Below, piece after piece: positions 3,076 to 52,054 of a stretch of DNA of 64,000 nt. Source of the DNA: Escherichia coli (lineage in GTDB: Bacteria > Pseudomonadota > Gammaproteobacteria > Enterobacterales > Enterobacteriaceae); assembly GCF_045037415.1 (NCBI RefSeq), contig NZ_CP173438.1, one strand, 5' to 3'. A program made the position numbers and the translations under genes. The notes below the pieces were generated by a model, which had not been told where the DNA came from, did no database searches, and worked only from the letters and a program-made list of their open reading frames with translations. How positions within the stretch are numbered: the first letter of the stretch is position 1; each line of letters opens with the position of its first letter.

Positions 3076-4722
3076 TCAGGATTTTTTCTTCTCGCGGCTA
3101 TGCAAGCCACGTTTTTCCAGACCACGGTAAATCAGCTGCTGCTGAATAATGGTTACCAGGTTGCTGACGATATAGTACAGCACCAGACCTGACGGGAACC
3201 ACAGGAAGAACACAGTGAAGATGACCGGCATAAAGGTCATGATCTTCTGCTGCATCGGGTCGGTCACAGTGGTCGGCGACATCTTCTGAATGAAGAACAT
3301 CGTTACGCCCATCAGGATCGGCAGGATGTAGTACGGGTCCTGTGCAGACAGGTCGTGGATCCACAGTGCAAACGGTGCCTGACGTAGTTCAACGGAACCC
3401 ATCAGCATGTAGTACAACGCCAGGAAGATTGGCATCTGGATCAGCAGCGGGAAGCAGCCGCCCAGCGGGTTAACCTTCTCAGCTTTGTACAGCGCCATCA
3501 TTTCCTGGCTTATGCGCTGTTTGTCATCGCCCAGACGCTCACGCATTGCCTGAATCTTCGGCTGCAGCATACGCATCTTCGCCATGGAGGTGTACTGCGC
3601 TTTGGTCAGCGGGTACATGATGCCACGAACGATAAAGGTGATGATGATAATGGAGAAGCCCCAGTTACCCACAAAGCTATGGATCCATTTCAGCAGTTTG
3701 AACAGTGGCTGAGAGATGAACCACAACCAACCGTAATCAACGGTCAGATCCAGGTGCGGAGCAACAGCTGCCATTTTGTCCTGAATTTCCGGGCCAACCC
3801 ACAGGGTGCTGTTCATCGCGCCAGTCTGACCAGGCTGAACCAGTACCGGCTGAGATTTATAGCCGATAGCGGCGATGCCGTTACCCAGATTAGCGGTGTA
3901 GAAGTTGTTGGTACCGTCGTTATGCGGGATCCACGCCGTCGCGAAATACTGTTGCAGCATTGCCACCCAACCACCTTTCGAAGAGATGTTCAGGTTTTCG
4001 TTATCGGCAATGGTATCGAATTTGTATTTCTCGTACTTCTCGTCAGGCGTGGAGTACGCCGCACCACGGAAGGTGTGCAGTGCGAAGTTGCTGCTTCCGG
4101 TATCGAGATGCGGTGGCAGAGTGATGGATTGCTTCAACTGACCAAAGGTGGAGATTTCCAGCGGTTTCTCGCCAGCGTTCTGCACGTTGTAGTTGACGTT
4201 GACAGCGTAATCACCACGTTTCAGGACAAACGTTTTGGTAAACGTGTTGCCTGCCGCGTCGGTATACGTCATCGGCACCTGCAGTTCGTTTTGACCTTCA
4301 GCCAGCACATAAGCGTCTTTTTCAACGTTATATAGCGGACGCGGGCCGTTAGCCGGGTTATCCGGGCCATCACGACCGGTCAGACCGCTCTGTGCCTGAT
4401 AAATAAACTGCGGTGAAGTTTCCAGCAGCTGGAACGGCTGGGTAGAGTTCAGCTCTTTCGGGTAAGCCGGCAGCAGGGCCTGCTCAACATCACCACCACG
4501 GGTGTTGATGGTCAGATCAAGCACGTCGGTCTTAACCGAGATCAGTTTCCCCTGGCCACTGGCCGGTACGCCCTGGTCGGCGGCGCTACCCGCTGCGGTG
4601 GTCGTTGTCTGCGTGGTCTGTTGGGCCTGAGGTTGCGGGTTTTTATCCTGCTCCCAGGCTTGCCAGATCATGAAAGACACGAACAGCAAAGCGATGACTA
4701 AAAGATTGCGTTGCGAATCCAT
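3076..4722 (-). CDS. yidC: membrane protein insertase YidC
   Basis: 548-aa ORF starting [23 protein letters not shown], recognised as YidC. Confidence 0.96.
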
Positions 4723-4724
4723 CG

Positions 4725-4982
4725 TTAGTGTTCTCTGGTATCAAATGGTCCGGGCGGGACGGGATCGTCACCACCAGGGTGTAAAGGGTGGCATTTTAAT
4801 ACGCGTTTCACCGTCAACCAACTGCCTTTTATCACTCCAAACCTGCGCAATGCCTCAATTCCGTAGCTTGAACAGGTTGGAGTGAAACGACAATGCGGCC
4901 CGAGTAGCGGACTAATCAGGCGTTGATAGACCCGAATGAGGGCTATCAGGACCCGCGAGCCAGGCGACAGTGGCGGCGCCAT
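4725..4982 (-). CDS. yidD: membrane protein insertion efficiency factor YidD
   Basis: 85-aa ORF immediately downstream of rnpA and upstream of yidC; conserved synteny. Confidence 0.88.
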
Positions 4983-47395: not shown

Positions 47396-48214
47396 ATGAA
47401 ACTGACAACACATCATCTACGGGCGGGGGCCGCATTATTACTGGCAGGAGTTCTGCTGGCAGGTTGCGACCAGAGCAGTAGCGATGAAAAGCATATTAAA
47501 GTTGGCGTTATTAATGGCGCAGAACAAGATGTCGCGGAAGTCGCTAAAAAGGTAGCAAAAGAGAAATATGGCCTCGATGTTGAACTGGTAGGATTTAGCG
47601 GTTCGTTGCTACCGAACGATGCGACAAATCATGGCGAGCTTGATGCGAACGTCTTCCAGCATCGACCCTTTCTTGAACAAGATAATCAGGCGCATGGTTA
47701 TAAACTGGTAGCGGTGGGAAATACGTTTGTCTTCCCCATGGCGGGTTATTCCAAAAAAATCAAAACCGTGGCGCAAATAAAAGAAGGCGCGACAGTGGCG
47801 ATCCCCAACGACCCGACTAACCTTGGTCGTGCGCTTTTACTGCTGCAAAAAGAGAAGCTAATTACTCTGAAAGAGGGAAAAGGGTTATTACCTACCGCGT
47901 TGGATATAACCGATAATCCACGCCATTTGCAGATAATGGAGCTGGAAGGGGCACAGTTGCCACGTGTACTGGACGACCCGAAAGTGGATGTAGCGATTAT
48001 CAGCACCACTTACATCCAGCAAACAGGACTTTCTCCGGTTAACGACAGCGTATTTATTGAAGATAAAAATTCGCCGTATGTGAATATTCTGGTGGCACGG
48101 GAAGATAATAAGAATGCAGAAAACGTGAAGGAATTTCTGCAATCTTATCAATCACCCGAAGTCGCTAAAGCGGCAGAAACCATCTTTAACGGAGGCGCGG
48201 TGCCTGGCTGGTAA
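47396..48214 (+). CDS. nlpA: lipoprotein-28 (methionine-binding lipoprotein family)
   Basis: 272-aa ORF with lipobox LLAGC. Confidence 0.9.
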   Translation: MKLTTHHLRAGAALLLAGVLLAGCDQSSSDEKHIKVGVINGAEQDVAEVAKKVAKEKYGLDVELVGFSGSLLPNDATNHGELDANVFQHRPFLEQDNQAHGYKLVAVGNTFVFPMAGYSKKIKTVAQIKEGATVAIPNDPTNLGRALLLLQKEKLITLKEGKGLLPTALDITDNPRHLQIMELEGAQLPRVLDDPKVDVAIISTTYIQQTGLSPVNDSVFIEDKNSPYVNILVAREDNKNAENVKEFLQSYQSPEVAKAAETIFNGGAVPGW

Positions 48215-48217
48215 TTC

Positions 48218-49141
48218 TCACTCATGCCGCGCCGGACGATTTATTTTTCTGGCGCGGCGGCGGGAATCCATTGAAATCAAAATCACCGATGACAGAATCA
48301 GCAGCGTTCCCAGCCAGTCCGGCAATGTGAAGGTGATCCCCAGCAACAGCAAAGAGAGCAGTGCGCTACTTAATGGTTCTGCACAGCTTAAAATGCTGGC
48401 TTTTGGACCACCAATTAATTGTGCTCCTTTCAGGTACAGACTAAATGTCAGGGACGTACCAATGACCACCAAATAAAAAAACGCCAGAATCAAACTGCCG
48501 TTAACGACAAAGTTTGTCCCTTGTCTGGCATAAAAGGGCAGCAGGATCAGACCGCCAATGAGCATACTCCAGCCGACGACCGGTAACGTGCCATAGCGAG
48601 CAATCAGCGTTGAGGGATAGGTGGTATAGAATGCAGCAGCAAATGCCGAGGCAATGCCCCAGAATAACGCGGCAGGAGAGATCGATAATGACGTCGGATT
48701 ACCGTGTGTCACCAATAAAAAAGTCCCGATCAGCGATGTCAAAATAGCGCAAAAAACCAGGATGCCGGGGCGGGATTTACGCACCAGTGAGAACCAGGCG
48801 ACGATAATAGTCGGTGAGAGGAATTGCAGCACCGTTGCCGTGGCTGCGTTCGATTTTTCGATGGTTAGCAAAAAAGTGAGCTGTACGGTTAGCGCGCCAA
48901 CCACGGAAAAAATCAGTAGGCTAATGGCATCTTTGTGATTGTTAATAATAGAAAAGATTTTATCACCATGAACAAATGATAGCGTCAGCAGAATCAATCC
49001 GGCGAATATCAAACGCGTCATAGTCAAAAACTGCGACGACATCTGGCTTTGCTCCATGATGTATTGCGCGCAGACCCCTGAACTTCCCCACAACACGGCG
49101 GCAATCAGAACGTTCAGCATCCCCTTTCTGGTGGAACCCAT
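48218..49141 (-). CDS. yicL: EamA/DMT-family transporter YicL
   Basis: [30 protein letters not shown]...; start trimmed to the ATG at 49141. Confidence 0.85.
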
Positions 49142-49318
49142 TTTTCCCTCTGCATACTGTTTTGTCTTTTCATCAATATACGTTAAGGATACCACTACCG
49201 ATGACGGTGAGGGAGTAGAGTAATCAATCAGTTTTAGTGAATGGAGGAAATAATGACATATAACAATTATTCATATGGTGTTTAAAAAACCTCACTAAAA
49301 ACTCAATATGAAATTTAA

Positions 49319-49921
49319 TTATTTAATGTTCAATAACTCTATGGCTTTAGTATATTCATCAGGAATACCAATTATAAAACAAGGTGCGGTATCGGTAGGT
49401 AGATTTTCTTTGTTATCATCATCCAGAACAGAAATAGAAAACTGTCGTTCAGGTGTTGATGTTGTGGTTATTAAAATGGTTGGATTAGGAAGAGAAACAT
49501 ATGTTGTCTCATTTTTTAGTTTTATTCCTTTGATGTTTTCTTTGTTAATTTTATCAATCGTTTCAATAGAGAAAAAAGAATCATGCCCCATTCGCAGTTC
49601 AATTTTATTATCGTTTTCGAATAAATAAAGGGCATTATTGTTTTGAAACAGATTGAATATATTGTTAGCGCAAGTTTGAGTTGCTAGCCAGGATGCCGCT
49701 GGATGACTCAAATTAATATGTGTGCTAAAGACTTTGACGCGACTACTTCTGTTTTTCTCTTTACTTTCAATTAAATGCCTAGCGCTGTTGGCTGCTTTAC
49801 AAGTTCCATGCCCCACACGGCAAAAATAATCTCCTGAAAGGATACTTACAATCAGTATTACACCAATGACGACAGAAAAAATAGTTCCGATGAGTTTGAT
49901 GATGACAATCCTTGTGCAGTG
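49319..49921 (-). CDS. hypothetical AT-rich, Asn/Lys-rich protein with a possible N-terminal membrane anchor; start unclear (possible pseudogene)
   Basis: Track ORF starts at GTG 49816, but the frame stays open upstream through a hydrophobic segment IVIIKLIGTIFSVVIGVILIVSIL with no canonical start; an ATG at 49932-49934 is in another frame. Confidence 0.35.
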   Translation of the reverse strand, partial: HCTRIVIIKLIGTIFSVVIGVILIVSILSGDYFCRVGHGTCKAANSARHLIESKEKNRSSRVKVFSTHINLSHPAASWLATQTCANNIFNLFQNNNALYLFENDNKIELRMGHDSFFSIETIDKINKENIKGIKLKNETTYVSLPNPTILITTTSTPERQFSISVLDDDNKENLPTDTAPCFIIGIPDEYTKAIELLNIK

Positions 49922-50256
49922 TTATTTTCACCATGGATTATAATGTTATAGTGAAATTATTGCACCTGTAATTTTTCTTTGATTGTTTTAATCATCACAT
50001 TTACGCACTTCTTCATCTTTGTAGCAGGTAAAAGCCATATATGGATGGCTGGTGTCCGGTGCAGATAAAATGCAACTTATTCTTGATAGCTTGAAAAAAG
50101 AGAGGTTTTTTTGAGTGACGGTTGATGGTCGGTGGCAAGGAAGACGTTTTCGTACACTCGGCAAGAAAAATGAATCACTCTGTCATACTACCAGATACAT
50201 CAGCAGGGTCAGGTTGCTCAGAAATAAGCAGGATGGGGATCACTGAAGAGGCATTT

Positions 50257-50276
50257 TGGCGATCACAGGAGTCGAA
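50257..50276 (-). other. remnant of the selC tRNA 3' end (island attachment-site repeat)
   Basis: TGGCGATCACAGGAGTCGAA is the reverse complement of the selC 3' end TTCGACTCCTGTGATC[TTCC]GCCA with a 4-nt deletion; lies at the yicL-proximal edge of the island. Confidence 0.6.
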
Positions 50277-50411
50277 TATGAGTGTTAATGTTTTGATTTT
50301 AAATGATTAACCCGTGTTGGATAAATGAGTAACCCCCATAAGAACCCCCAAATGACTTTGCGTAAGGGAATGAGGCTAAAATACACAATCGAATCAATTA
50401 TTAGAGCTTTC

Positions 50412-51254
50412 TTATGAAGGTAACACTCCCGGATAGTGTTTCGCAATAATCTCATTCAGCCTGTCAACCAGTTCTGGTTTCCTGAACGTGATGTGTGCGG
50501 AGCCCTTCTTAAAGTATCTGATGCTGAACATCTCATCTTCGTAGTCCTCTTTACCTTGAACAGACTGGGTGTGGTCATCCAGATGAATGGTGATGTTTTC
50601 CCGGTTGTCGGGGATCGGTTTGCCGCTGAACAGGTGCAGCATTCTTTCCAGATCGGCAAGTCGATCGGCCTGTTGCCCGGTGATAAGATGAAACCCCCAT
50701 CTGTCCCACCTTACCAGGTTGTTGACGATAATTTTACTGCCAAACTTGCAGGGGCAATTGGTTTTGTAATTCCAGCTCAGTCCCCTGAAGACGTTGATCA
50801 CCCCCCGCTCAAACACTTCATCTTTGTTCTGGTGCAGTTGTTCAAATGTGCTCAGAATGTTCGCTTCACTGATTTCCGGAAAATTATCGTATTCCAGTGA
50901 TCGGTACCATGTATCACGGGCCTGTGCATCCATTAAGGAAAGCATCCCTGAACGTTGCATCAGGTCACGCCAGATTTCGCGGTCAAGATTCCGGGTAATG
51001 GCTTTCATTGCCGTTTCAGGTTTCTCCATGAGCCAGCATCCGCAGCGAAAATCCTGTTTCATGGCCCAGTCCGGGGCAGTTTTACCTCCGATGCTTTCCG
51101 TCAGCACCGAGATTTCAGCCAGTTGCCGGATAAGTGTGTCGATTTGCAGCAGTGTATTCTTTCGTACAGCCAGAATGTGGCAGATTGAGGTGGAACAGAT
51201 AACGTCCGTATGCCCGTTGACCACTTCCGGACGGGAGACTGTGATTTTAGACAT
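50412..51254 (-). CDS. DUF4942-family protein (terminal gene of CP4-like elements)
   Basis: 280-aa ORF; follows the CbtA/YeeW/DUF957 block as in CP4-type cryptic prophages (recalled). Confidence 0.65.
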   Translation of the reverse strand: MSKITVSRPEVVNGHTDVICSTSICHILAVRKNTLLQIDTLIRQLAEISVLTESIGGKTAPDWAMKQDFRCGCWLMEKPETAMKAITRNLDREIWRDLMQRSGMLSLMDAQARDTWYRSLEYDNFPEISEANILSTFEQLHQNKDEVFERGVINVFRGLSWNYKTNCPCKFGSKIIVNNLVRWDRWGFHLITGQQADRLADLERMLHLFSGKPIPDNRENITIHLDDHTQSVQGKEDYEDEMFSIRYFKKGSAHITFRKPELVDRLNEIIAKHYPGVLPS

Positions 51255-51350
51255 AATCGATATTCCTTTTTGCAGATAAATGAAAACGCCAGCCCTGTTC
51301 AGGCTGGTGTCAGTGGAATGAAGTCTGGTGAGTGAGATGATGAGTAAGAC

Positions 51351-51548
51351 TCACCGGTTCTGTTGCAGAAGCTGTAGTTGGCGCAGGGTACGGATATCTT
51401 CCCTGGCCTGTTCAATGCAGGGCAACAGTGCTGCTGAATCCGTTCTATCCTCATCGTTGTCGAAGATAATCCCGGATTCACAGTCGATATTGTCCTGCAG
51501 CCACGCAATCAGAATATCCAGCGCCGTTTCTGTCGTTAATGATTTCAT
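51351..51548 (-). CDS. DUF957-family small protein
   Basis: ORF MKSLTTETALDILIAWLQDNIDCESGIIFDNDEDRTD...; position in the CP4-like gene order. Confidence 0.55.
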   Translation of the reverse strand: MKSLTTETALDILIAWLQDNIDCESGIIFDNDEDRTDSAALLPCIEQAREDIRTLRQLQLLQQNR

Positions 51549-51565
51549 GTTGTGAATTTCCCTGA

Positions 51566-52054
51566 TTACCAGTCGAAAGTGGGCAGACCCGGCAGACATT
51601 CAGCGCAGGCATCCAGATGAATGAGACTGACGCCATAACGGCGAATGAGCGTGACGATCAGACGACGAAACGTTTTTGACAGGCCCAGGCGTTTAAGTCG
51701 CAGAACCGGGTACGACCACGCATCGGTACGTAACAGATATCCGCTACCGGTAAAATGAATCCATTCTGATTCGCCGAAGTCATTCGTCTGATGTGACAGC
51801 GAGTACAGCCAGGCGTTGTCCTTTGCCGTGATATGCGCGGTACTGCAGCGTATGCCGGTAAGGGCCGCAGATGGTGGCGTGCGCTCTGCTGATGTCCGGT
51901 CAGATTCATCAACAACACGAAGGGAGTAACCGTTATCGCAGACCACGTTAATCAGTTCAGCGAGAGTAACACCATCGACGTCAACGACAATGCGCCCCAT
52001 GTTCAGTGCCTGCACGTTAATGCTGTCGGCTTCCAGCGTCAGGGCCAGTTTCAT
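51566..52054 (-). CDS. YeeW-like protein (DUF5983)
   Basis: 162-aa ORF immediately downstream of and overlapping the CbtA-like toxin. Confidence 0.6.
   Translation of the reverse strand: MKLALTLEADSINVQALNMGRIVVDVDGVTLAELINVVCDNGYSLRVVDESDRTSAERTPPSAALTGIRCSTAHITAKDNAWLYSLSHQTNDFGESEWIHFTGSGYLLRTDAWSYPVLRLKRLGLSKTFRRLIVTLIRRYGVSLIHLDACAECLPGLPTFDW

What the first reader, a model, noticed from the sequence alone, without database searches (positions are those of the whole stretch)
49142..50256. AT-rich junction between yicL and the island with a disrupted membrane-anchored ORF
Where setC would be expected there is low-GC DNA. Its minus-strand ORF (Asn/Lys-rich, 165 aa from GTG 49816) has an in-frame upstream hydrophobic anchor without a canonical start codon, while an ATG at 49932-49934 lies in another frame. 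That points to a frameshifted pseudogene, possibly a relic of an older insertion.
Basis: seen in the sequence. Interest (0 to 1): 0.4.

Follow-up and report, generated by a model that had tools for sequence, protein, structure and literature searches.

The report
Intact membrane-anchored gene, non-canonical start codon
The apparently broken gene next to yicL is most likely an intact, conserved gene for a small membrane-anchored protein that starts at a rare ATC codon, so gene callers cut off its anchor and it only looks like a pseudogene.

Summary
Window 49142-50256 has 35% GC against 50% for the whole window. It holds a minus-strand ORF whose in-frame upstream hydrophobic segment has no ATG, GTG or TTG before it, and there is an out-of-frame ATG at 49934-49932.

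The frameshifted-pseudogene reading is not supported. Orthologues at 71% identity (Escherichia whittamii-like contig) and 59% identity (Klebsiella-like contig) have the same layout. All three run 198 collinear codons with no indel. dN/dS is 0.10-0.25 overall and 0.27-0.30 across the hydrophobic helix. The GTG that PGAP calls as the start is GTA or CCG in these relatives, and the out-of-frame ATG is absent from them.

All three share AAGGAT, a 7-nt spacer, then ATC or ATT followed by AAA. Distant homologues (about 21-25% identity) have GTG or ATG at exactly that codon. No complete E. coli genome (0 of 1104 records) carries the single-base deletion that would fuse the frames. The 40-nt initiation region is identical in 1096 of 1104 records.

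Best reading: a 193-194-aa protein (49900 or 49903 down to 49319, minus strand) that starts at AUC and has an N-terminal membrane anchor. Four cysteines are invariant across the family, which suggests a periplasmic beta-rich domain. Function is unknown. There is no experimental evidence for the start codon.

The parts
48218..49141 (-). yicL (EamA-family transporter). It is the downstream, same-strand neighbour of the ORF.
   Evidence: PGAP annotation in identical genomes and the K-12 comparison. The ORF listing extends it to a GTG at 49195, but the annotated start is the ATG at 49141.
49142..49318 (-). Spacer between the ORF and yicL. Only its last 25-28 nt next to yicL are shared with K-12. 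An 11-nt indel separates the two E. coli alleles here.
   Evidence: Alignments. No terminator-like site was found. The spacer is shared with the E. whittamii-like locus L003.
49319..49900 (-). Proposed full coding sequence, 193 aa plus stop, starting at ATC 49900-49898. If the adjacent ATC at 49903-49901 is the start instead, the protein is 194 aa.
   Evidence: 198 collinear codons with no indel, under purifying selection in three lineages. ATC 49900 is the codon that aligns with the GTG or ATG start of distant homologues.
49319..49816 (-). ORF as called by the ORF listing and PGAP (165 aa from GTG 49816). This is probably an N-terminally truncated call.
   Evidence: The GTG is GTA in L003 and CCG in L005.
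49832..49894 (-). N-terminal hydrophobic helix (LIGTIFSVVIGVILIVSILSG), acting as a membrane anchor or export signal.
   Evidence: Kyte-Doolittle peak of 2.89. AlphaFold2 models a helix at residues 2-22. dN/dS is 0.27-0.30 at dS 1.0-1.3. A helix is present in all family members, including those at 21-25% identity.
49876..49881 (-). T6 homopolymer (A6 on the + strand) inside the helix codons. Losing one T would fuse the out-of-frame ATG ORF to the main frame.
   Evidence: Sequence. The fused forms appear only in a few assemblies outside the complete-genome set (P0010, P0014, P0025). The T5 form is found in 0 of 1104 complete-genome records.
49898..49903 (-). Two consecutive ATC codons, the candidate non-canonical initiation codons.
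   Evidence: These are ATC ATT in L003 and ATT ATT in L005. They align with AGC GTG in Entomohabitans and ATG ATG in L008 and L018. The surrounding 40 nt are identical in 1096 of 1104 E. coli records.
49909..49913 (-). Shine-Dalgarno-like AAGGA, 5 nt upstream of the first ATC and 8 nt upstream of the second.
   Evidence: AAGGAT is conserved in E. coli, L003, L005 and Entomohabitans at the same distance from the start column. The region shows no stable RNA structure (z = +0.4).
49922..49924 (-). In-frame TAA stop that closes the main frame six codons upstream of the first ATC.
49932..49934 (-). It opens a 45-aa ORF spanning 49797-49934.
   Evidence: It is not conserved in L003 or L005.
49937..49965 (-). 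Possible promoter: TATAAT at 49942-49937, a 17-nt spacer, and the weak -35-like GTGCAA at 49965-49960. A transcript from it would start at about the out-of-frame ATG or just after it.
   Evidence: Read by eye from the sequence. TATTAT in L003 and TGgTAATAT in L005 lie at similar distances. The consensus scan did not list this site, so it is an inference.
49935..50275 (-). Upstream non-coding DNA that travels with the ORF.
   Evidence: 97-100% identical in the CFT073 allele and in L007, an E. coli contig with different island cargo. The small ORFs here are broken by indels in CFT073. No Rfam match is credible: the only one is a eukaryotic snoRNA family at 49290-49364, E = 0.32.
50412..51254 (-). 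DUF4942 gene, the first gene of the CP4-type island (CbtA/YeeU and others) beyond the AT-rich module.
   Evidence: PGAP annotation of identical genomes.

Best explanation
The AT-rich DNA between yicL and the island carries an intact, horizontally acquired orphan gene, not a frameshifted relic.

Proposed mechanism (inferred): translation starts at a non-canonical AUC codon. The best candidate is 49900-49898, and the adjacent AUC at 49903-49901 is the alternative. A conserved AAGGA Shine-Dalgarno sequence lies 8 or 5 nt upstream, in an unstructured leader.

Proposed product (inferred): a protein of 193-194 aa beginning Met-Lys (or Met-Ile-Lys). About 21 hydrophobic residues follow and act as a signal anchor or an uncleaved export signal. 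The beta-rich C-terminal domain would lie in the periplasm, held by two disulfide bonds formed from the four cysteines that are invariant across the family. A near-cognate start codon should keep synthesis low, at about 1-2% of AUG in reporter assays, and should make it sensitive to IF3 proofreading.

Gene callers require ATG, GTG or TTG. They therefore fall back on the next in-frame GTG (49816) and annotate a 165-aa protein without its anchor.

Shown by the data: conservation of the frame and of the helix, absence of a canonical start, and alignment of ATC/ATT with canonical starts in relatives.

Inferred only: actual initiation at AUC, topology, disulfides and the expression level. The biochemical function is unknown. 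My guess is a periplasmic binding or inhibitor/immunity-type protein, held with low confidence.
For: 1. No ATG, GTG or TTG lies in frame between the TAA at 49924 and the GTG at 49816.
2. Orthologues at 71% identity (L003, Escherichia whittamii-like) and 59% identity (L005, Klebsiella-like) keep the hydrophobic segment in frame. Their substitutions preserve hydrophobicity.
3. The three genes are collinear over 198 codons with no indel. dN/dS is 0.10-0.25 overall and 0.27-0.30 for helix codons 5-28, at dS 1.0-1.3.
4. GTG 49816 is GTA in L003 and CCG in L005, and L003 has no other canonical start nearby.
5. The initiation regions align without gaps: AAGGAT, 7 nt, then ATC (E. coli), ATT (L003), ATT (L005), GTG (Entomohabitans teleogrylli) or ATG (L008, L018), followed by AAA or AAG.
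6. Distant homologues (21-25% identity) share the architecture M-K, helix, C-x6-C, C, C. Four cysteines are invariant across the family.
7. The 40-nt initiation region is identical in 1096 of 1104 E. coli records. The 90-nt 5' region is identical in 1080 of 1104 and is identical between the two 97% alleles.
8. The leader has no significant RNA structure.
9. AUC supports initiation with Met at about 1-2% of AUG in E. coli. AUU is the natural start of infC and pcnB (bioRxiv 10.1101/063800, read).
Against: - There is no experimental evidence of any kind: no N-terminal peptide, ribosome profiling or transcription start mapping.
- Only three independent sequences carry the ATC/ATT state. L004 is identical to L003 and L006 to L005, and the whole family is tiny.
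- No confirmed natural AUC start is known in E. coli.
- The two adjacent ATY codons cannot be told apart.
- Within E. coli, dN/dS is 0.39 on only 12 substitutions, which is uninformative.
- The region after the helix is rich in Lys and Arg, so the positive-inside rule does not clearly predict an N-in/C-out topology.
- One low-coverage E. coli metagenome contig (L007) has AGG changed to ATG four codons upstream of the proposed start. A canonical start can therefore arise there.
Confidence: 0.66

Rival explanations
1. Frameshifted pseudogene. The protein originally started at the ATG at 49934, and a 1-nt insertion, for example in the T6 tract at 49881-49876, separated the start from the anchor and the body.
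For: The ATG at 49934 opens a 45-aa ORF that overlaps the helix codons in another frame. Deleting one T from the T6 tract would fuse the frames. Such fused proteins exist in a few assemblies outside the complete-genome set (P0010, P0014, P0025).
Against: The ATG is absent from L003 and L005. The residues upstream of the T6 tract (IIKLIGTI) are conserved in the main frame, not in the ATG frame. 0 of 1104 complete-genome records carry the T5 form. The fused variants also carry a second shift at another T6 tract, which is typical of homopolymer sequencing errors. There is no indel in 198 codons across three lineages, and dN/dS is 0.1-0.25.
Confidence: 0.04
2. The annotated version is correct. Translation starts at GTG 49816 and gives a soluble 165-aa cytoplasmic protein, and the upstream hydrophobic frame is untranslated leader.
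For: GTG is a canonical start, and PGAP calls it consistently. The protein cluster has 1799 members of 165 aa.
Against: The GTG is not conserved: it is GTA in L003 and CCG in L005. I see no Shine-Dalgarno-like sequence in front of it (UAUUUUUGCCGUGUG). The helix codons show coding-type purifying selection. Distant homologues with canonical starts include the helix. The two cysteines flanking the GTG (C-x6-C) are invariant, and the first lies upstream of the GTG.
Confidence: 0.07
3. Start-codon loss. The gene lost its ATG or GTG in the common ancestor of the Escherichia and Klebsiella copies and is now silent or decaying, and what is seen is residual conservation.
For: Relatives at 21-25% identity have canonical starts at this position. 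The gene is AT-rich island DNA of the type that H-NS often silences (general knowledge). The family is rare.
Against: After the ATY state arose, the lineages diverged to dS between 0.7 and saturation. They still show dN/dS 0.10-0.25, with no stop and no indel in 198 codons. The Shine-Dalgarno sequence and both ATY codons are retained in all three. The gene is called intact in essentially all of the roughly 1100 E. coli carriers.
Confidence: 0.1
4. Translation of the anchor begins by another unusual route. Candidates are the ATT at 49909-49907, the in-frame CTG inside the helix, or re-initiation after the short upstream frames.
For: Other near-cognate codons exist in the frame. Upstream stops at 49930 and 49924 lie close to the proposed start.
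Against: The ATT at 49909 overlaps the Shine-Dalgarno sequence, so its spacing is zero. The CTG is not conserved (GTC GTA in L003). The upstream frames differ completely among the three lineages. Only the ATY-AAA position aligns with the canonical starts of relatives.
Confidence: 0.1

Closest known systems
E. coli infC and pcnB, the genes with a natural AUU initiation codon
   Same: A near-cognate AUH start codon follows a Shine-Dalgarno sequence, and the unusual codon is conserved among orthologues (here ATC, ATT and ATT in three lineages). By analogy, low and IF3-sensitive initiation is expected (for the literature).
   Different: In E. coli the codon here is AUC, for which no confirmed natural case was reported. 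The gene is an accessory island gene for a membrane-anchored protein, not a translation or RNA-metabolism factor. There is no evidence of autoregulation, and nothing has been tested experimentally.
RefSeq hypothetical proteins WP_000509815 / WP_000509808 (165 aa), the current annotation of this locus
   Same: Same gene and same reading frame. The C-terminal 165 residues are identical.
   Different: The annotation starts at GTG 49816 and lacks the 28-29 N-terminal residues. These include the conserved helix and the first invariant cysteine.
Hypothetical protein of Entomohabitans teleogrylli (P0029, 199 aa) and metagenomic P0028 / P0032 (205 aa)
   Same: Same family by profile search (E = 1e-11). 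Same architecture of M-K, helix, C-x6-C, C, C, and the same AAGGAT-type ribosome-binding site in Entomohabitans.
   Different: Only 21-25% identical to the E. coli protein. These have canonical GTG or ATG starts. The Entomohabitans copy lies between housekeeping-type genes, not at an island edge.
Small periplasmic or lipoprotein beta-barrels of lipocalin type (PliC/MliC lysozyme inhibitors, Tp0751, bacterial lipocalins)
   Same: These are the best structural neighbours of the AlphaFold2 models: antiparallel beta domains of 70-100 aligned residues, and many hits are lipoproteins or periplasmic proteins.
setC, the K-12 occupant of the position upstream of yicL
   Same: Same chromosomal position and same orientation relative to yicL.
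   Different: Unrelated sequence. Homology with K-12 ends about 25-28 nt upstream of the yicL ATG. setC encodes a multi-pass transporter of 394 aa.

Membership tests
Frameshifted pseudogene | An intact relative exists in which the upstream ATG frame and the body are one ORF | tested here: not met
   No such form among the divergent homologues. The T5 fusion variant is found in 0 of 1104 complete E. coli records.
Frameshifted pseudogene | Relaxed constraint: dN/dS near 1, with indels and stops accumulating | tested here: not met
   dN/dS is 0.10-0.25. There are 198 collinear codons with no indel or stop in three lineages.
Genes with a non-canonical (AUU/AUC) initiation codon, infC/pcnB type | Conserved coding sequence extends upstream of every canonical in-frame start | tested here: met
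   The helix codons are under purifying selection. There is no ATG, GTG or TTG between TAA 49924 and GTG 49816. The same holds in L005.
Genes with a non-canonical (AUU/AUC) initiation codon, infC/pcnB type | Shine-Dalgarno sequence at a functional distance from the near-cognate codon | tested here: met
   AAGGA lies 5 and 8 nt upstream of the two ATC codons and is conserved in four lineages.
Genes with a non-canonical (AUU/AUC) initiation codon, infC/pcnB type | The unusual codon is conserved among orthologues and aligns with canonical starts in more distant relatives | tested here: met
   ATC, ATT and ATT align with GTG and ATG in the same column. This rests on only three independent ATY sequences.
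Genes with a non-canonical (AUU/AUC) initiation codon, infC/pcnB type | Direct demonstration of initiation at that codon (N-terminal sequence, toeprint, start-site ribosome profiling) | not testable with these tools
   No such data could be reached. No paper mentions the protein accessions.
Genes with a non-canonical (AUU/AUC) initiation codon, infC/pcnB type | IF3-dependent discrimination or regulation | not testable with these tools
   This needs reporter assays in infC mutants.
Signal-anchored or exported periplasmic protein | N-terminal hydrophobic helix preceded by a short positively charged stretch | tested here: met
   Kyte-Doolittle peak of 2.89. AlphaFold2 helix at residues 2-22. M-K or M-K-K N-termini across the family.
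Signal-anchored or exported periplasmic protein | Conserved cysteine pairs consistent with disulfide bonds in the exported domain | tested here: met
   Four cysteines are invariant in all five or six aligned family members. That they form disulfides is an inference.
Signal-anchored or exported periplasmic protein | Signal-peptidase I or II cleavage site, or demonstrated topology | tested here: inconclusive
   No lipobox: the Cys lies 4 residues after LSG. L-S-G|D is a permissible but weak signal-peptidase I site, and the hydrophobic region is long (about 21 residues). Many Lys and Arg follow the helix.
PliC/MliC-type lysozyme inhibitors and lipocalin-like barrels | Significant structural match to the eight-stranded barrel | tested here: inconclusive
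PliC/MliC-type lysozyme inhibitors and lipocalin-like barrels | Sequence membership (Pfam or NCBIfam model, PDB sequence match) | tested here: not met
   No hit at E = 0.001 or better in Pfam, NCBIfam or PDB sequences.
Known anti-phage defence or phage protein families | Match to a PADLOC or PHROG profile | tested here: not met
   PADLOC gives 0 families. The best PHROG hit has E = 0.035 and covers the helix only. There is no tblastn hit in phage genomes or in IMG/VR.

The most novel reading that the evidence does not exclude
The AUC/AUU start is a selected regulatory device, not merely a tolerated defect. It would keep a membrane-anchored periplasmic protein at very low basal level and tie its synthesis to conditions in which IF3 proofreading is relaxed. 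It has been conserved from Escherichia to Klebsiella. If so, this would be the first natural AUC-initiated gene in E. coli. It would also show that start-codon rules in annotation pipelines systematically truncate such genes in more than 1000 RefSeq genomes, including CFT073 and Nissle 1917.
Probability: 0.2. Interest if true: 0.65.

Novelty: new member of a known kind. Interest (0 to 1): 0.45.

Why it matters
[quoted passage not shown] A third case using AUC, conserved across genera, would be a useful natural test for near-cognate initiation and IF3 discrimination. About 20% of complete E. coli genomes carry it, including model uropathogenic and probiotic strains.

The practical consequence is an annotation error. 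The RefSeq protein lacks its membrane anchor and its first invariant cysteine, so localisation and function predictions for it are wrong. The locus can also be misread as a pseudogene.

The finding corrects the picture of the selC/yicL junction as well. The AT-rich module is a stable, conserved neighbour of yicL that is independent of the island cargo. It is not debris.

Tried and rejected
- **Family and structure searches.** Pfam, NCBIfam, PHROGs, PADLOC and PDB sequence searches gave no significant hit. Rfam over 48000-52000 gave only a spurious eukaryotic snoRNA match at E = 0.32.
- **Searches for more relatives.**
  - Two scans of genome contigs (peptide patterns, then a degenerate DNA pattern for KNETxYVSLPNP) found nothing.
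  - The metagenome scan returned only E. coli-type alleles.
  - Viral contigs gave nothing, and phage genomes gave nothing.
  - The plasmid collection gave one hit, which is in fact an E. coli chromosome.
  - The ATY clade therefore could not be enlarged beyond three independent sequences.
- **Fold searches.** Three searches on two AlphaFold2 models gave only weak matches of generic beta-barrel or lipoprotein type. No functional assignment was made.
- **Phase variation at the T6 tract.** Rejected: 0 of 1104 records carry T5, and 1080 of 1104 are identical over the 90-nt 5' region.
- **Programmed frameshifting from the ATG at 49934.** Rejected, because the ATG and its frame are not conserved.
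- **The long N-terminal extension called in L003 (GTG, 30 codons further upstream).** Rejected as a family feature, because E. coli and L005 have stops there.
- **Regulatory RNA structure around the start.** None: z-scores run from -0.4 to +0.7.
- **Repeats in the region.** Only short chance matches.
- **Literature.** No paper mentions the protein accessions or this ORF.
Full report
**1. What is in the sequence**

The window is E. coli chromosome of the type found in CFT073, Nissle 1917 and ATCC 25922. nlpA lies at 47396-48214 (+) and yicL at 48218-49141 (-). A low-GC stretch follows, and then a CP4-type island that begins with a DUF4942 gene at 50412-51254 (-).

The flagged interval 49142-50256 has 35.2% GC against 50.4% for the window, falling to 28% locally. 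Its only sizeable ORF runs on the minus strand from GTG 49816 to TAA 49319 (165 aa). PGAP annotates exactly this ORF as a hypothetical protein.

Reading further upstream in the same frame gives TAA(49924) HCTRIVIIKLIGTIFSVVIGVILIVSILSGDYFCR before the GTG. None of these 35 codons is ATG, GTG or TTG. The Kyte-Doolittle 19-residue mean reaches 2.89. The ATG at 49934-49932 is in a different frame.

In K-12 the gene upstream of yicL is setC. Homology between K-12 and the window ends about 25-28 nt upstream of the yicL start.

**2. Distribution in E. coli**

The 1.1-kb segment is present in 1103 of 5426 complete E. coli genomes, and in every record whose surroundings I inspected it lies next to yicL. 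It comes in two alleles that are about 97% identical.

The two alleles differ by 12 substitutions in the coding part and by an 11-nt indel downstream. They are identical from the proposed promoter through the helix.

An E. coli metagenome contig with different island cargo still carries the same module from about 50275 to yicL. The module is therefore a stable neighbour of yicL and not part of the variable cargo.

**3. Homologues decide between a pseudogene and an intact gene**

The family is very small. Two divergent orthologues were recovered with their DNA.

- L003 is 71% identical. It lies next to a yicL homologue and a FliB gene whose cluster is named Escherichia whittamii or Escherichia sp..
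- L005 is 59% identical. It lies next to an integrase whose cluster is named Klebsiella.

Both keep the hydrophobic segment in frame with the body. The sequences are TRIVIIKLIGTIITLLLSIVVISNLISGDYFCRVGHGTC in L003 and RRICIIKLIGFLFSFVLVMILISNIISGNVVCSPGNGTC in L005.

From the AGG codon to the stop, the three genes are 198 codons long with no indel. Pairwise dS is 0.7 (E. coli/L003), 1.5 (E. coli/L005) and saturated (L003/L005). dN/dS is 0.10-0.25 overall and 0.27-0.30 for helix codons 5-28. This is the signature of a translated, constrained sequence and not of a decaying one.

The PGAP start GTG 49816 is GTA in L003 and CCG in L005. The out-of-frame ATG at 49934 has no counterpart in either. 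L005, like E. coli, has an in-frame stop shortly upstream of the helix and no canonical start before the helix. Its only in-frame ATG lies inside the helix, and that is where the gene caller started P0017.

The opposite holds.

**4.

Deleting one T from the T6 tract at 49881-49876 would fuse the ATG frame to the body. A few proteins in the large collection are of this kind (P0010, P0014, P0025). They carry a second shift at another T6 tract, as expected of homopolymer sequencing errors.

Among complete genomes the T5 form occurs in 0 of 1104 records. The 90-nt 5' region is identical in 1080 of 1104 records. There is no sign of phase variation or of an intact ancestor with the ATG frame.

**5. 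Where translation most likely starts**

The initiation regions of all family members align without gaps.

| Source | Ribosome-binding site and spacer | Start column | Next codon |
|---|---|---|---|
| E. coli | cacAAGGATtgtcatc | ATC | AAA |
| L003 | cacAAGGATcgtcatc | ATT | AAA |
| L005 | cagAAGGATttgcatt | ATT | AAA |
| Entomohabitans teleogrylli (P0029) | aaaAAGGATtttaagc | GTG | AAA |
| L008 / L018 (P0028 / P0032) | aaaATGGACtttaatg | ATG | AAG |

The distant homologues (21-25% identity; profile E = 1e-11) begin M-K and are followed at once by the helix. The codon that is a canonical start in them is ATC (49900-49898) in E. coli and ATT in the two orthologues. The codon before it is also ATY in all three (49903-49901 in E. 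coli) and is ATG in L008.

AAGGA (49913-49909) lies 8 and 5 nt upstream of these two codons. The leader has no significant secondary structure (z = +0.4). The 40 nt that span the Shine-Dalgarno sequence and both ATC codons are identical in 1096 of 1104 E. coli records.

By eye, a TATAAT at 49942-49937 with a weak -35 (GTGCAA at 49965-49960) has counterparts in L003 (TATTAT) and L005 (TGgTAATAT) at similar distances. A transcript from it would start at about the out-of-frame ATG or just after it. The consensus scan did not report this promoter, so it remains an inference.

The literature read here states that only infC and pcnB, both AUU, are confirmed non-canonical starts in E. coli. It also reports that AUC, AUU, AUA and CUG initiate at about 1-2% of AUG, with Met at the N-terminus (bioRxiv 10.1101/063800).

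The most economical reading is a gene of 193 aa (194 if the first ATC is used), initiated at AUC. Gene callers truncate it because they accept only ATG, GTG and TTG.

**6. What the protein looks like**

AlphaFold2 with the shallow family alignment gives models of moderate confidence: pLDDT 67 for the full length and 70 for the soluble part, with pTM 0.62-0.68. The full-length model has an N-terminal helix (residues 2-22) and a second helix, followed by a domain of about eight beta strands.

Four cysteines are invariant in all members, including the distant ones. They form a C-x6-C pair just after the helix plus two single cysteines. I read this as two disulfides in an exported domain, which is an inference.

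There is no lipobox, and the cleavage site is ambiguous.

The function therefore remains unknown. A periplasmic binding or inhibitor-type role is a low-confidence guess from the shape and location alone.

**7. Comparison with known things and novelty**

The mechanism resembles infC and pcnB in using a near-cognate AUH start behind a Shine-Dalgarno sequence that is conserved among orthologues. The membership features I could test are met:

- coding constraint upstream of any canonical start;
- Shine-Dalgarno spacing;
- conservation of the unusual codon, and its alignment with canonical starts in relatives.

The defining experimental features (a mapped N-terminus and IF3 dependence) cannot be tested here.

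The locus fails both testable features of a frameshift pseudogene. It is not a member of any named protein family. I rate it as a new member of a known kind, namely genes with non-canonical starts, attached to an uncharacterised orphan protein family.

**8. Caveats**

- Only three independent sequences show the ATY state.
- Attempts to find more failed.
- No expression data were available.
- The choice between the two ATC codons is open.
- One low-coverage contig shows AGG changed to ATG four codons upstream of the proposed start, together with other changes. This could be real variation or error.

A silent gene with a lost start cannot be fully excluded, but it fits the substitution pattern poorly.

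**Verdict**

The best explanation is an intact, mis-annotated gene with a conserved AUC/AUU start (confidence about 0.66). Interest is moderate.

Noticed in passing
L007:4990-5040 (E. coli metagenome contig, coverage about 4.6): This E. coli allele has AGG changed to ATG at the codon overlapping the Shine-Dalgarno sequence (AAGGA becomes AATGA). That creates a canonical ATG four codons upstream of the proposed ATC start. It also has K-to-I and T-to-S changes and an internal in-frame deletion (P0002). It could be a real allele that repaired the start, or low-coverage error.
   Followed up: partly
window 49142-49170 and L017 (K-12) 4720-4748: Homology between K-12 and this strain ends only about 25-28 nt upstream of the yicL ATG. 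The yicL promoter region therefore differs between setC-type and AT-rich-module-type strains. The E. whittamii-like contig L003 shares the AT-rich-type junction.
   Followed up: partly
window 50322-50352: The G-run motif TTTGGGGGTTCTTATGGGGGTTACTCATTTA (minus strand) is unique in the window. It lies just below the DUF4942 gene, at about the point where similarity begins to an E. coli contig with different island cargo (L007). It is possibly an island boundary or recombination point.
   Followed up: partly
L003:1640-1700: About 300 nt upstream of the orthologue in the E. whittamii-like contig there is a short remnant that translates like the DUF4942 protein (GIINVFKGLSWDYKTNNPC). A CP4-type island therefore seems to have been present there and largely deleted, while the AT-rich gene was kept.
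   Followed up: no
L005:1041-1934 and 3547-4641: In the Klebsiella-like contig the orthologue is not next to yicL. It sits between an integrase-domain gene (Phage_int_SAM_2/Integrase_1) and two unknown genes, one with a weak HTH_3 hit. This suggests the gene moves on an integrative element.
   Followed up: no
window 49142-50256; hit H1 (NZ_CP124332.1): In strain AVS0753 the match to this region is split into two pieces by an IS1A insertion.
   Followed up: no
proteins P0007, P0008, P0011, P0010, P0014, P0021, P0025: The large protein collection holds several chimeric versions of this protein. In them the out-of-frame ATG ORF is joined to the body at different points, mostly at T-runs. They come mainly from Logan assemblies and look like homopolymer or assembly errors. 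None of the complete genomes has the T5 form.
   Followed up: partly
window 49988-50164 (minus strand): A 58-aa ORF lies in the upstream non-coding DNA. Two 1-nt indels in the CFT073 allele put it out of frame, so it is unlikely to be coding.
   Followed up: partly
window 48218-49195: the ORF listing extends yicL to a GTG at 49195 (325 aa). The annotated and K-12-conserved start is the ATG at 49141 (307 aa).
   Followed up: yes
L007:1281-3406: The alternative island cargo in this E. coli contig includes a 465-aa AAA_15/AAA_21/SMC_N ATPase followed by a 243-aa protein with no domain, next to CbtA/CbeA. It is possibly a two-gene defence system. It is unrelated to the finding.
   Followed up: no
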